Below are positions 29,401-61,341 of a stretch of DNA of 64,000 bases, one piece after another. The translations under genes were made by a program, and so were the position numbers. The stretch's first letter is position 1, and each line of letters opens with the position of its first letter. The notes under the pieces were generated by a model that had not been told where the DNA came from, searched no databases, and saw nothing but the letters and a program-made list of their open reading frames with translations. The DNA comes from Eledone cirrhosa (Eukaryota): positions 82,522,001 through 82,586,000 of the forward strand of contig OZ024747.1 of NCBI GenBank assembly GCA_964016885.1. Reading direction: 5' to 3'.

Positions 29401-30388
29401 AACGTCTACAATAATGATAGACTATGAACTACCTAACAGCAAGTCTCTGTTAGATTAAGCTCTTCGAAACCATGCTAGTAATCACCGAGAAGGAAAGATA
29501 CCGATGTTAATGATGAGGGAGATAGTTGCTTTATGTATATTTCTGTACATCATCCTTAACGGGATGAGATGTAATGCAATTGGATATTGGAATGAGACCG
29601 TTGATTAGCACGTAGTTGTAGGATTACTTCATATTAGAATGAGATTGTGTTGGAACGTAAGGATTCTACATATTCACGTATGTCGTTATGCAGCTTATAT
29701 ACCAATGTAAGTTATTGCTGTTGTTTAGTCCTAGGCCATGAATACCTATGATAAAACCTATTTTAACATGACTATTCACTCTTTTTGTATATCAGAGAGT
29801 AGATTATTCAATATGTTTCATTTCTTAAACAGGTTGGTCATATTTTGGGAAAAGCTTTCTTGCTACCGAGGTACTTTATGAGATTTTCTCAAATATTATT
29901 TATACTGATCCACTGTTGCTATAGCCATTTACATTGGGACGACGACATTTCAAATGTGTTCCAATGTTTTTTAAGTCAACCGGATGTTTGTGTGTATGTG
30001 AGGGGAGTGGAGTCAAAACAAGCAGCGAGCTGCAACAATTATTAGGATGACTAATGTCATCAGGCTGCAGTCATCGTATTACGGAATTTCTATATGATAA
30101 TAATCTGAGCGACTAAAACCGCATTATATATATATATATATATATATATATATATATATATATATATATATATATATATAGTTATACTTGGGGAGGGTGA
30201 TATTTGTGTAATATTGCCAGAATTAATAACAGAACACACTCACTGTTTGGTTGGTTTTCGCTTCTCGCTGTCTTTTATATCTGCGATCTAACTTAATCGG
30301 TCCTCAATGTTGCCATTGACTGACCGACGGTAAAAAATAATACAGATACAATATAGACACAAACACATATATATAGTTTACATAATTT

Positions 30389-30428
30389 ACATAAATCTTT
30401 CGTTGCACATCTGCAACATCGTCAGTGG
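30389..30428 (-). ncRNA. Minimal hammerhead ribozyme motif in PLE 3' UTR
   Basis: CTGACGA-T-GTTGCA-GATG-TGCAAC-GAAAGATTTA; strong helix II, weak helices I and III. Confidence 0.75.
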
Positions 30429-30702
30429 TGTTATATTTTTTCCTCCTGTTGTGTTGTATGTCTACGCCATTTTTTATTCAGTCTGTCTATATATTTATTT
30501 ATTTATTTGCTTGTTTGCTTATTTTATTTTGTCTTCTTTGCGCATGCGTTTGCGTGTGTGTATAGTGTTGTGTGTGCTGTGTGACTAGTGTGTATAGTGT
30601 TGTGTCTGCTGGGTGACTAGTGTGTGTTTATGTGCTTGTTGTTATTGTGCTTGTGTATGTATTTATTTATCTTATTTTATTTTATTTTATTTATTTACTT
30701 AT

Positions 30703-32702
30703 TTATACTTCTCTTAGGTCAGTGTTGTTTGTTTGGGTGTTGTTGTTGTTCCACTCATTCTTTCTGTTTAGCTTTGGTCTTCTAATTTCTATTTCACTGG
30801 CCTCTCTGATTTGCCTATCTGCTGGGTCATTCCTATGTTTAGATATTATTCTAATTTCTATGTTGTCTATGTTACCGTCATGTTGTTGTCTAGCATGTTC
30901 GTATAGTACTGACCCGTTTTTTCGTCCTTTTAGTTCCCCCCAGTGTTGGTCTATCCTTTCACCTATGCTACGAGCTGTCTCACCTATGTATGTTGTTGTC
31001 ATGTTTCTGCAAGTACCCTCTGTACATCTTATGCTATAGACTACGTTTCTAGTTTTTCAGTTTATCCGGGGGTTCACCTTACATATGATACATTTCCTAT
31101 TGGTACAGTGGGTTTTCTTAAAAGGGTAGGTTTTGCTGATCAGGGATTTTATGGTGGTTCCTGGCTTTTCTACCACCTTTATTTTTAAGTGGGTCTTTCT
31201 CAGGGCCTTTCTACACTGGTTAGCTAATTTCCCTCCAGGGGTGGCGTCCACAAACATGACACTCTGATATCTCTGGTTGTCGTACCATGATGTGGCCTTC
31301 CCTATCTTATGTCTAGCCCTATCTAAGCTATTCCATGATTTGCTCCTGTATAGTGGGCAAATTCCTTTCATGTCCAGTTCTATGAGGGTCTTATACTTTT
31401 CCATGGCTCCTTCGTATACTCTGACTCTGTCTCTTTGGTTGTAGCCAGAGAACTGCATGCGGTTGATGAAGTGTTGGATGTGTCTTTCCATTTCTGTTGG
31501 GTCGCACATGCTGGACACATTCTTCATCACTCGTACCAAATCTGCGATCAGAATATTAAACTTAGCACTACTGGACATTGCTGAGTTTTTGAGTATCAGG
31601 TATTTGGAGGCCATGGGTTTAGCATAGTGTGAGTGGAGAATTTGGGCTCTCTCGTCTATAGTGTTAATCCAGAGTTCTGTGTCTAATACAGGTAGTCTAT
31701 TGTTAGGGTGTTTGGAAGGGAAGTCGATAGTTACAGTTATACTCTGGTGTATGGAATTAGCTATCTGCTGGATGCTTTCCATCGTGCTACGTTCTAAATC
31801 AAACTTGTTAGTGCTCTCTAGTGGGGGTGTTCTTATAACTATATTGATATCGTCTACATAACGAGAGTACATGATGAGGTCTATGGAGCTTTCATTAAGG
31901 AGATCTTTAAGTCTCCTTTCCCACCATACCATGAAAAGGTTGGCAACATCACCAGCTATGCTGACGCCGATGGCTGCTCCCTCATTTTGGGTGTAGATTT
32001 TCTCATTGAACTTAAATATGTGGCCCTTTAGGGTAGTTTTGATACTAGCCCCTATTGCATGTGCGACCATTTTTCTTACCTGATCAGTGTTTTTTTTGGG
32101 GGGGGGGTCCGTATAGCTTTGGTCCACCCAATCCACCTTCCTATGGGAGTCTTTTTTGCCATTGAGGTTATGGTGGGGGGTATACCTCTTATAGGTCTAC
32201 TAGGGCAGAAACATCTAAGGTCATGGCTGTCTAGGTAGTCAGTGTCGTAGGTAAGTCTAAGTAGGAGGCCCAGTTCGTCTGTGTCGACGTCGCAGAACTC
32301 CACCTCACTCTCAATGATCATCTCCACACATCTTTTCACAGCAAAATCAATGTTAATGGATGGGTACAGTGACACCACATCCATGCTGCCTATTATGCAG
32401 TTTGATAGGCTCCTGTTTTTGTTGCACTCACTGATTCTGCTGAGGAGGTCCTCTGTACTTTCACATACATCTGGGGACATCTTGATTATGGGGCGTATAA
32501 CCATTGAGAGGAAGTAGGAGATCCTGTAGTTGCTAGCTATATTAGCTCCGCATACGGGTCTTGTTGGTGGTCCTGTTGTCGGGTCGTTGACTGTCTTGTG
32601 GTCTTTGCGGAGCCCATACAAGGGTGGTATGCCATTGTTAGACGCCTGGAAGTTGTTGGCAGTGCGTCTGCTTGGCTTTAGGATGTCAGTCCACATCATC
32701 AT
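30703..32702 (-). CDS. PLE reverse transcriptase - GIY-YIG endonuclease ORF (5'-truncated; one frameshift, one in-frame TGA)
   Basis: LYGLRKDHK, PTRPV, SMDVVSLYPSI, QNEGAAIG, RYVDD, LPVLD, CTNRKCIIC knuckle, NVVY..C..C..YIGET, ERIDQH, LYEH, RQIREA, LNRKNEW. Confidence 0.9.
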
Positions 32703-33273
32703 TCAAAAAAAAAAAAAAAAATCCTCAACGCTCACATGATGATGTGGACTGACATCCTAAAGCCAAGCAGACGCACTGCCAACAACTTCCAGGCGTCTAA
32801 CAATGGCATACTACCCTTGTATGGGCTCCGCAAAGACCACAAGACAGTCAACGACCCGACAACAGGACCACCAACAAGATAGGCAAATCAGAGAGGCCAG
32901 TGAAATAGAAATTAGAAAACCAAAGCTAAACAGAAAGAATGAGTGGAACAACAACAACACCCAAACAAACAACACTGACCTAAGAGAAGTATAAATAAAT
33001 AAATAAATAAAATAAAATAAAATAAAATAAGATAAATAAATACATACACAAGCACAATAACAACAAGCACATAAACACACACTAGTCACCCAGCAGACAC
33101 AACACTATACACACTAGTCACACAGCACACACAACACTATACACACACGCAAACGCATGCGCAAAGAAGACAAAATAAAATAAACAAACAAGCAAATAAA
33201 TAAATAAATATATAGACAGACTGAATAAAAAATGGCGTAGACATACAACACAACAGGAGGAAAAAATATAACA

Positions 33274-60300: not shown

Positions 60301-60659
60301 AGAGGGGTGGTTTCAGCTACTGCAACAAGTGTGAACACTTGAAGCAATATTTGATACACTTGGTGATTTCGATGTTTCTGCAGTACAGTTGGACAATGAT
60401 GAGAAACAAACTTTTAATTCTAGTGAGAAATCGTATAGATTATTTTTTGTAGTTGAGTAGTTCTAGCGAATGTTCATATTTGAGAAAGATGAGAATACTT
60501 GTAAAAATATCCTTCGTCGGTGGAATGTGACTTTACCCCTTGTAATATCATGAAGCATTTTCCCTTGTATCTATATTATAATATATATATATATATATAT
60601 ATTATAATATAGATACAAGGGAAAATATATATATATATATATATATATATATATATATA

Positions 60660-60847
60660 TAGGAACAAGTAAGACCCCGACGGCTGAGCTCAAGCCGTTT
60701 CGACGGCTAATTCAGAATTAGCCGTCGAAACGGCTTGAGCTCAGCCGTCGGGGTCTTACTTGTTCCTATTACCCACTCTACTACCCTAAGTATTGAGTAC
60801 TTTGGTGCGTTATGGTCCACCTGGTTCCTTACCACATTTCCTTCGTT
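60660..60847. mobile_element. Fold-back PLE-type insertion with perfect 54-bp arms
   Basis: Palindrome centred on 60714 with 1-nt loop; about 78-nt right extension; (TA)n on both sides. Confidence 0.8.
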
Positions 60848-60867
60848 ATATATATATATATATATAT

Positions 60868-61341
60868 CGTTTCTGAATTTGTTTAGCCAGATTCTTTATC
60901 TGAAAACGTATGTTGAAACCGATATTGTTATGCTTTGGTAGGGTCTTGTTGCCAATCAGAAACACACGCACCAGATGCTTTCACTTCAATTTATTATAAA
61001 TTAAATTTATAAATTTAAGAATTTGTAAATTTCCGGTTGGTTAGTTGGTTGCATAACCGGACGGTTGTTCATATATTGTCAAAGTTCTTTCGTGACACAT
61101 TCTGTGACCTCTTCAGTGACTGGGGATTCTTTTCTTTATTTTGTGCTTCTCCTTTGTTCTGTCCTACGCCATCTTGTTTATGGCGTAGGACAGAACAAAG
61201 GAGAGGTTATGGAACCAACTAACCAACCGGAAATTTATAAATTCTTAAATTTATAAATTTTATTTATAATAAATTGGAGTGAAAGCAACTGGTGCGTGTG
61301 TTTCTGATTGGCAACATGACCCTCCCAAAGCATAACAATAT
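60868..61341. mobile_element. Fold-back PLE 3'-UTR insertion
   Basis: Long minus arm 60868-61172 with tail; plus arm 61180-61341 with internal deletion; same family as 52793-53237. Confidence 0.82.
61078..61120 (-). ncRNA. Hammerhead ribozyme motif
   Basis: GTCA-CTGAAGA-GGTCACA-GAA-TGTGTCAC-GAA-AG-AA-CT-T-TGAC. Confidence 0.7.

What the first reader, a model, noticed from the sequence alone, without database searches (positions are those of the whole stretch)
30181..61341. Fixed short-arm and long-arm asymmetry at a conserved CCCTCC(C)AA(A)GYATAAC motif
Seen: in three independent insertions one arm stops right after the motif and runs into (TA)n (30181, about 53235, about 61339). The other arm continues about 55-60 nt through a conserved tail, GTTTC.A.ACACG.TTTCA.AT.AA.AA...GC..AA..AATTCA (33521-33581, 52793-52850, 60868-60921). 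Solo tails occur at 22311-22357 and 3811-3855. Unrelated families show the same asymmetry with about 33-140-nt tails, and short arms tend to end at a TA-like spot. Known: Penelope pseudo-LTRs have an optional short tail. Inference: the two ends are made by different steps, first priming at the true RNA 3' end, then priming or nicking at an internal target-mimic site.
Basis: partly seen in the sequence, partly recalled or inferred. Interest (0 to 1): 0.75.

Follow-up and report, generated by a model that had tools for sequence, protein, structure and literature searches.

The report
Twin-primed Penelope insertions, one tail
These are back-to-back copies of Penelope-type jumping genes in TA repeats, almost always with one short and one long end, both inside the first codons of the element's own gene; the one-sided tail is already known, and the strict pairing likely means that both cut DNA strands start copying the same RNA at two fixed points.

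Summary
The three insertions belong to two Neptune-type Penelope-like families (A, B; 11,805 and 22,589 exact hits genome-wide). Motif plus tail is the start of the element's reading frame (MTLPKYNNI..., codons 1-28), which explains its conservation. Tandem copies read straight through the long end, so it is not a genomic 3' terminus. Arms end at +26 (short) or +84/+86 (long); family A also ends at +69. Two-armed insertions pair short with long: 30 of 31 by position lists; 85 long ends face a short arm against 2 long-long insertions; 0 of 96 short ends face a short end. Two unrelated families obey the same rule (28 of 29). Many insertions show only one arm. The arms are independent copies: the short-ended arm usually reaches further 5', and 18 of 82 long arms are tail only, which argues against fold-back. 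Best model (inferred): both nicked strands prime one RNA at two internal TA-like sites. The one-sided tail and the two internal start sites are published; my searches found no paper on the pairing rule or twin priming. This scan has reported the same reading before, on other DNA in this and other genomes.

The parts
30176..32702 (-). Family A short-ended arm: 5'-truncated RT, GIY-YIG endonuclease, 3' UTR and ORF-start motif, ending at +26; frame broken by a frameshift and a stop
32703..32720 (.). Junction between the two A arms (T run); near-symmetric head-to-head joint
32716..33584 (+). Family A long-ended arm: about 160 nt of RT, an internal jump at 32877-32879 to the endonuclease end, 3' UTR, motif and tail to +84
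33501..33584 (+). Motif plus tail = ATG and codons 1-28 of the ORF (short site +26, middle site +69, long site +84)
33277..33304 (+). Hammerhead-like core (CUGACGA, stem II, GAAA) in the A 3' UTR; mirror copy at 30398-30425 (-); stems I and III weak
   Evidence: read by eye, no Rfam hit
52788..52872 (-). Family B insertion 1, long arm covering only +2..+86
52871..53237 (+). Family B insertion 1, short arm from -365 to +26, with a hammerhead-like core at 53043-53071
60862..61182 (-). Family B insertion 2, long arm from -246 to +86
61205..61341 (+). Family B insertion 2, short arm from -121 to +26
22306..22358 (+). Solo tail of an A-like subfamily, from the short site to about +75, TA on both sides; encodes CFDTRFHIKNVAKQIH
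3775..3862 (+). Diverged relative of motif plus tail; not a TA-flanked solo tail
30125..30180 (.). (TA)n target run; others at 33582-33639, 52719-52792, 53235-53346, 60847-60866 and 61339-61352
49197..49766 (.). Unrelated family D (Hydra-type endonuclease in longer copies): same long-plus-short layout, tail about 85 nt
60662..60846 (.). Unrelated family J (second copy at 22106-22286): same layout, tail about 80 nt

Best explanation
These are insertions of Neptune-type Penelope-like retrotransposons whose two ends lie at fixed TA-like points inside the first 28 codons of the ORF, and they are likely made by twin priming: the endonuclease would nick both strands of a (TA)n target, and each freed end would prime reverse transcription on the same read-through RNA, one at +26 and one at +69 to +86. 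Shown: family, coding nature of the tail, end positions, the pairing rule, independent arm lengths, shared source of the two arms and microhomology at their joint. Inferred: (1) a tandem or circular read-through RNA supplies the sites; (2) the protein binds this region and fixes two priming windows about 45-60 nt apart, and within each window the primer takes a 2-5-nt TA match; (3) the short site is primed before the downstream enzyme passes it, so the downstream copy either stops near the short site (tail-only arms) or displaces the first cDNA and copies on (overlapping arms); (4) the two cDNA ends are joined by microhomology; (5) if one copy aborts at once, a one-armed insertion or a solo tail results.
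For: Pairing: 21 of 21 and 30 of 31 outward pairs (19 long+short, 11 middle+short, 1 long+long; p 1.5e-8; the two tallies overlap). From long ends, A 43 and B 42 face a short arm, with one long-long insertion in each family; 0 of 96 short ends face a short end. Genome-wide A counts are near 1:1, 4,796 short against 1,748 + 2,831 longer ends. Arms are independent: of 82 pairs the short arm starts further 5' in 46, the long arm in 24, and 12 are within 20 nt; 18 long arms hold only tail sequence and share none with their partner. Same source: the arms of one insertion differ by 2.3% (A, n=19) and 1.7% (B, n=22), against 4.7% and 4.5% between insertions. Long arms tend to stop at the short site: 14 of 40 starting in -15..+54 start in +13..+26 (p 0.02). 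Symmetric joints exceed chance (12 against 3.8), as expected if both copies run off one broken RNA. Joint microhomology of 2 nt or more occurs in 20 of 35 clean non-symmetric joints without inserted bases, against 15% expected. Families J (17 of 17) and D (11 of 12) follow the rule (by eye). In vitro, an anole Penelope protein cuts and extends both strands and starts at two internal RNA sites that bound the tail (PMC11167929).
Against: No RNA, enzyme or fresh insertion was examined. In vitro, no difference in start site between top and bottom strand was seen (PMC11167929), so the coupling is not reproduced there. One-armed insertions are common. The pile-up at the short site is modest, its window was chosen after seeing the data, and one of the 14 is a local duplicate. 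Arm similarity could also come from two RNAs of one source locus or from gene conversion. The 12 symmetric joints also fit fold-back. Exceptions exist: L219 (long-long), L388 (short-short, perfect palindrome), L085 and L110 (look secondary, with shared flanks). BLAST end extension may inflate the microhomology, and a few arms were mis-chained (L242, L256, L298). About a fifth of ends (13 of 71, 12 of 70, 16 of 68, 7 of 28) could not be resolved. Samples for A, B and J come from the first 90 Mb of one contig.
Confidence: 0.55

Rival explanations
1. Both strands prime, but on two separate RNA molecules held by an asymmetric protein pair, one enzyme always starting at the short site and the other at the long site.
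For: Fits the pairing rule, the independent arm lengths (rank correlation of arm starts not significant) and overlapping arms without needing strand displacement. A dimer was predicted for the anole protein (PMC11167929).
Against: Gives no reason for long arms stopping near the short site or for the excess of symmetric joints, and needs an unexplained built-in asymmetry.
Confidence: 0.2
2. Fold-back self-priming: one cDNA made from the long site folds back, is copied, and stops or is nicked at the short site (the self-priming idea of PMC3846280 combined with the first reader's nick at a target mimic).
For: 12 of 82 joints are symmetric, 8 within 5 nt; the window's A copy has such a joint; L388 is a perfect palindrome.
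Against: The short arm must then be contained in the long arm, but it reaches further 5' in 46 of 82 pairs, and 18 long arms share no sequence with their partner. Window insertion B1 is such a case.
Confidence: 0.1
3. One reading: the long end is a true (processed) RNA 3' end that is primed first, and the short end comes from a later internal priming.
For: The long end is very sharp (+84/+86). RNA-seq read ends fall on the start sites in the anole element (PMC11167929).
Against: The site is inside the ORF and is read through in tandem copies; it moves to +69 where a TA is offered; in vitro initiation is internal; and long-first copying of one RNA would cover the short site before it could be primed (inference).
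Confidence: 0.08
4. The ends are cut at DNA level: the endonuclease resolves a DNA intermediate at the two sites.
For: Suggested in PMC8557442; the tail was needed for endonuclease recognition in D. virilis, as cited in PMC11167929; TA-like sites resemble the target.
Against: Two identical arms of a DNA intermediate give no reason for one cut of each kind; tail-only arms of graded length look like truncated cDNAs; the best TA mimic at +47..+51 is almost unused.
Confidence: 0.07

Closest known systems
Insertion units of endonuclease-positive Penelope-like elements with inverted pLTR and tail (PMC8557442 Fig. 2 legend; PMC3846280; passages read)
   Same: [quoted passage not shown]
   Different: The tail here is about 58-60 nt rather than 30-40; the pairing is counted and nearly strict; a third end point exists in family A; those papers explain the layout by self-priming or endonuclease resolution.
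PAc, Poseidon element of Anolis carolinensis (PMC11167929; parts 1-2 of 4 read)
   Same: Two internal start sites inside the ORF 5' region bound the tail; both target strands are cut and extended; AT-rich target.
   Different: Other clade (no linker zinc finger). Starts there are described as not homologous to the cut DNA, whereas here every used site has a 2-5-nt TA match. No strand-to-site coupling was reported in the text I read.
Neptune clade of PLEs (PMC8557442; motif line and Neptune1_Nv row in its supplement)
   Same: RT followed by a C-x4-C-x2-C linker and a GIY-YIG domain with two internal cysteines and downstream histidines.
   Different: No tree against named Neptune or Nematis references was possible; the closest named protein is an Octopus vulgaris hypothetical protein at 70%.
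LINE-1 twin priming (recalled; the term was seen only in a search listing)
   Same: A second target strand primes at an internal RNA site, giving an inversion joined by microhomology.
   Different: In L1 the first primer uses the poly(A) end, the internal site is variable, and the two parts do not overlap. Here both sites are internal and fixed, and the arms usually overlap.

Membership tests
EN+ Penelope-like elements | Single ORF with RT and C-terminal GIY-YIG endonuclease | tested here: met
   RT motifs and GIY-YIG-type domain in both units. Pfam RVT_1 only below its cut-off; weak PDB match to a GIY-YIG homing endonuclease, E 0.22. The copies read are frameshifted.
EN+ Penelope-like elements | Tandem or partial-tandem units forming pLTRs, with inverted 5'-truncated copies | tested here: met
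   4,147-bp tandem in L078/L079 and 4,151-bp unit in L224; inverted arms throughout.
EN+ Penelope-like elements | Optional tail at one end, overlapping the ORF start | tested here: met
   the tail-encoded peptide is recognisable in distant homologues P0018 and P0032.
EN+ Penelope-like elements | Hammerhead ribozyme in the pLTR | tested here: inconclusive
   Core motifs by eye at -222..-187 (A) and -179..-143 (B). B in L224 folds with stems I and II but z = -0.9. No Rfam hammerhead hit.
EN+ Penelope-like elements | Target-site duplication of variable length | not testable with these tools
   Both flanks are (TA)n runs.
Neptune clade | CX2-5CxxC linker plus CCHH-type endonuclease | tested here: met
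   CTNRKCIIC and CIDKKCITC, two cysteines between VVY and YIG, downstream histidines; same pattern as the Neptune rows.
Neptune clade | RT phylogeny with named Neptune, not Nematis, elements | not tested
   No named reference sequences were in hand.
Hydra clade (families A and B) | CxCX5C linker, no CCHH | tested here: not met
   A and B have CxxC and internal cysteines. The motif is met by family D (L393, L400) and by one copy upstream of a J end (L348).
Naiad/Chlamys | N-terminal endonuclease | tested here: not met
   The endonuclease is C-terminal.
Twin priming (L1-like mechanism) | Both strands primed on one RNA molecule | tested here: inconclusive
   Indirect support only; two RNAs of one source are not excluded.

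The most novel reading that the evidence does not exclude
Twin priming is the normal integration route of Penelope-like elements: one protein complex holds a single RNA so that the two nicked target strands start reverse transcription in two windows a set distance apart (about 45-60 nt here), the upstream start fires first, and the downstream enzyme displaces it. This one rule would produce the inverted pLTR, the one-sided tail, tail-only arms and solo tails in Neptune- and Hydra-type families alike, and family A versus B shows that a 2-nt TA match inside the window decides the exact start.
Probability: 0.45. Interest if true: 0.7.

Novelty: new member of a known kind. Interest (0 to 1): 0.42.

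Why it matters
How Penelope-like elements make their inverted repeats and tail is named as an open question in PMC8557442, and the first in vitro system left the later steps unexplained (PMC11167929). These very abundant, young families turn the qualitative 'tail often at one end' into a counted rule and separate the published fold-back idea from two independent primings. They give sharp predictions for the existing in vitro assay. The elements and the layout themselves are of a known kind, so the value lies in the mechanism test, not in a new system.

Tried and rejected
RNA evidence: no RNA holder was listed; laying four contig sets showed nothing about RNA ends. Homodimer prediction of the first 200 residues gave no verdict (score 0.00, alignment not used, fold uncertain). 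RNA structure as the start signal: folding z-scores of -0.3 to -1.6 around the sites are not significant; a small hairpin at +91..+105 exists in both families with one compensatory pair, too little to use. Rfam found no hammerhead. Arm inner ends show no clear pile at the predicted ribozyme cut. Pure target mimicry was rejected. The motif as a non-coding conserved signal was rejected, because it codes. 3811-3855 as a solo tail was rejected. Literature searches with no paper linking Penelope elements to twin priming or stating a one-long-one-short rule: 0 papers; 3 listed, none on PLE mechanism by title and abstract start. Subscription papers such as the 2004-2006 Penelope papers are outside the library, and the supplementary figures of PMC11167929 are images that gave no text, so a prior statement there cannot be excluded. 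Passages of PMC9977147 and of bioRxiv 10.64898/2026.07.22.740005 added nothing on the tail.
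Full report
Observation. The motif occurs six times in the window, three times followed at once by (TA)n and three times by a 55-60-nt tail. They form three head-to-head insertions: 30176-33584 (family A) and 52788-53237 and 60862-61341 (family B). The window lies in a 3.0-Gb genome in which exact arm patterns hit 11,805 (A) and 22,589 (B) times, with 0 hits for reversed controls. 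The solo tail at 22311 is real; the one at 3811 is the end of a diverged relative and is not TA-flanked on its left.

What the element is. Tandem copies give full units of 4,147 bp (L079) and 4,151 bp (L224). Each has one long, here frameshifted, ORF: N-terminal domain, Asn-rich insert, RT, a C-x4-C-x2-C linker and a GIY-YIG domain with internal cysteines (A and B are 68% identical over RT and endonuclease). This matches the Neptune pattern in the supplement of PMC8557442; no tree against named references was made. The closest named protein is an Octopus vulgaris hypothetical protein at 70%. The motif begins with the ORF's ATG: motif plus tail encode MTLPKYNNICFDTRFHIKNLAKLIHRRY in A and [28 protein letters not shown] in B, and the peptide is recognisable in distant homologues. 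In tandem copies the sequence runs through the long end into the ORF.

End points. Counting from the ATG, unbiased samples (the first 100 pattern hits for A; 30 loci plus 20 chosen regions, 16 of them picked as pairs, for B) give peaks at +26 and +84 with a third at +69 in A (98 arms) and at +26 and +86 in B (65 arms). Genome-wide exact counts for A are 4,796 at +26 (5 of the first 100 rows were double matches), 27 at +51, 1,748 at +69 and 2,831 at +84; the patterns differ in length, so the near 1:1 ratio of short to longer ends is approximate. Every used site offers a 2-5-nt TA match, but the best match (+47..+51) is almost unused, and B, which lacks the TA at +68/69, has no ends there. So position sets a window and microhomology picks the base.

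Pairing. In the first 75 Mb of contig C1, outward-facing pairs were 21 of 21 tail+short and, with end-specific lists, 30 of 31. From fetched DNA, 43 of 71 A and 42 of 70 B long ends face a short arm; one insertion in each family is long-long; 10 and 11 run into TA; 13 and 12 are unresolved; the rest are unclear or at a locus edge. None of 96 short ends faces a short end; 50 face a tail, 21 run into TA, and 25 are unresolved or at an edge (two tail calls matched an internal look-alike, though one search shows a tail at the far end). The A long-long case L085 has identical flanks on both sides and looks like a later local duplication. Unrelated families J (35,506 hits) and D (138 hits; Hydra-type endonuclease) gave 17 of 17 and 11 of 12 long+short pairs, read by eye.

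Mechanism tests. Fold-back predicts that the short arm lies within the long arm. In 82 distinct pairs (one of 83 rows was a duplicate; two more pairs had no resolved joint) the short arm starts further 5' in 46, the long arm in 24, and 12 are symmetric; 18 long arms contain only tail. Window insertion B1 is an example: long arm +2..+86, short arm from -365. The arms are thus two separate cDNAs, each anchored to one target strand. They come from the same source and are joined with excess microhomology. Three hints favour one RNA molecule: long arms tend to stop at the short site (14 of 40, p 0.02, post hoc), symmetric joints are three times the shuffled expectation, and a single RNA explains why the two primers never share a site. 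On one RNA the short site has to be primed before the downstream enzyme passes it, and overlapping arms require strand displacement on an undegraded RNA; that PLE RTs lack RNase H is recalled, not tested. These steps are inference.

Against. One-armed insertions are common, so 'one of each per insertion' holds only for two-armed ones. No RNA data were available. The in vitro study saw no strand difference in start sites. Two RNAs from one locus, and fold-back for the symmetric minority, remain possible.

What is known. A tail often present at only one end, inverted truncated copies, overlap of the tail with the first codons, and Asn-rich inserts are published (PMC8557442, passages, section 11 and supplement search; PMC3846280, passages). 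Two internal start sites bounding the tail and extension of both strands were shown in vitro (PMC11167929, parts 1-2 of 4). My searches found no paper stating the pairing rule or twin priming for these elements, within a library that lacks most subscription papers. I had reached this reading before consulting earlier scan notes; those notes report the same layout and the same model many times, in this genome and in at least seven genomes. They are unreviewed and are not counted as support.

Verdict. A real feature of known elements in a known layout. The added value is a counted pairing rule and evidence against fold-back, which make a published open question testable in an existing assay. Interest 0.42.

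Noticed in passing
L079 and L224, unit positions +91..+105: A 5-bp hairpin 5-6 nt downstream of the long site in both families, with one compensatory pair made by two synonymous changes; overall folding not significant.
   Followed up: partly
L123:4457-5549: Four short middle+short insertions in a row separated by TA runs; either repeated insertion or local amplification.
   Followed up: no
L219:845-890; L323; L249: Minimal two-armed insertions, with arms of only about 12-35 nt on the short side and 13-66 nt on the long side.
   Followed up: partly
L108, L110, L111 (C1 36.03-36.15 Mb): Neighbouring family A copies share flanks, suggesting recombination between copies; this gives a long+middle pair.
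   Followed up: no
window 51275-51599; 23425-24275, 33640-33746, 54173-54281; 51902-52073: Further TA-embedded palindrome-plus-tail families (tails about 140 nt and 75 nt) packed against the studied ones.
   Followed up: no
window 38775-40970: A 2-kb GGT-rich tandem array with open low-complexity frames on both strands.
   Followed up: no
window 1417-1614, 19403-19593, 21453-21647, 29206-29400, 38679-38876, 43968-44162, 46939-47348: A dispersed repeat of about 190 nt, SINE-like, in at least eight copies.
   Followed up: no
window 5895-6527 (-): A fragment resembling the zinc-binding end of a non-LTR retrotransposon (label from recall, no search run).
   Followed up: no
family A 3' UTR, about -280 to -270 from the ATG: Arm inner ends cluster at a poly(A) run in both short and long arms.
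   Followed up: partly
L104:556: A family A short end inserted into (ATC)n instead of (TA)n, ending at +22.
   Followed up: no
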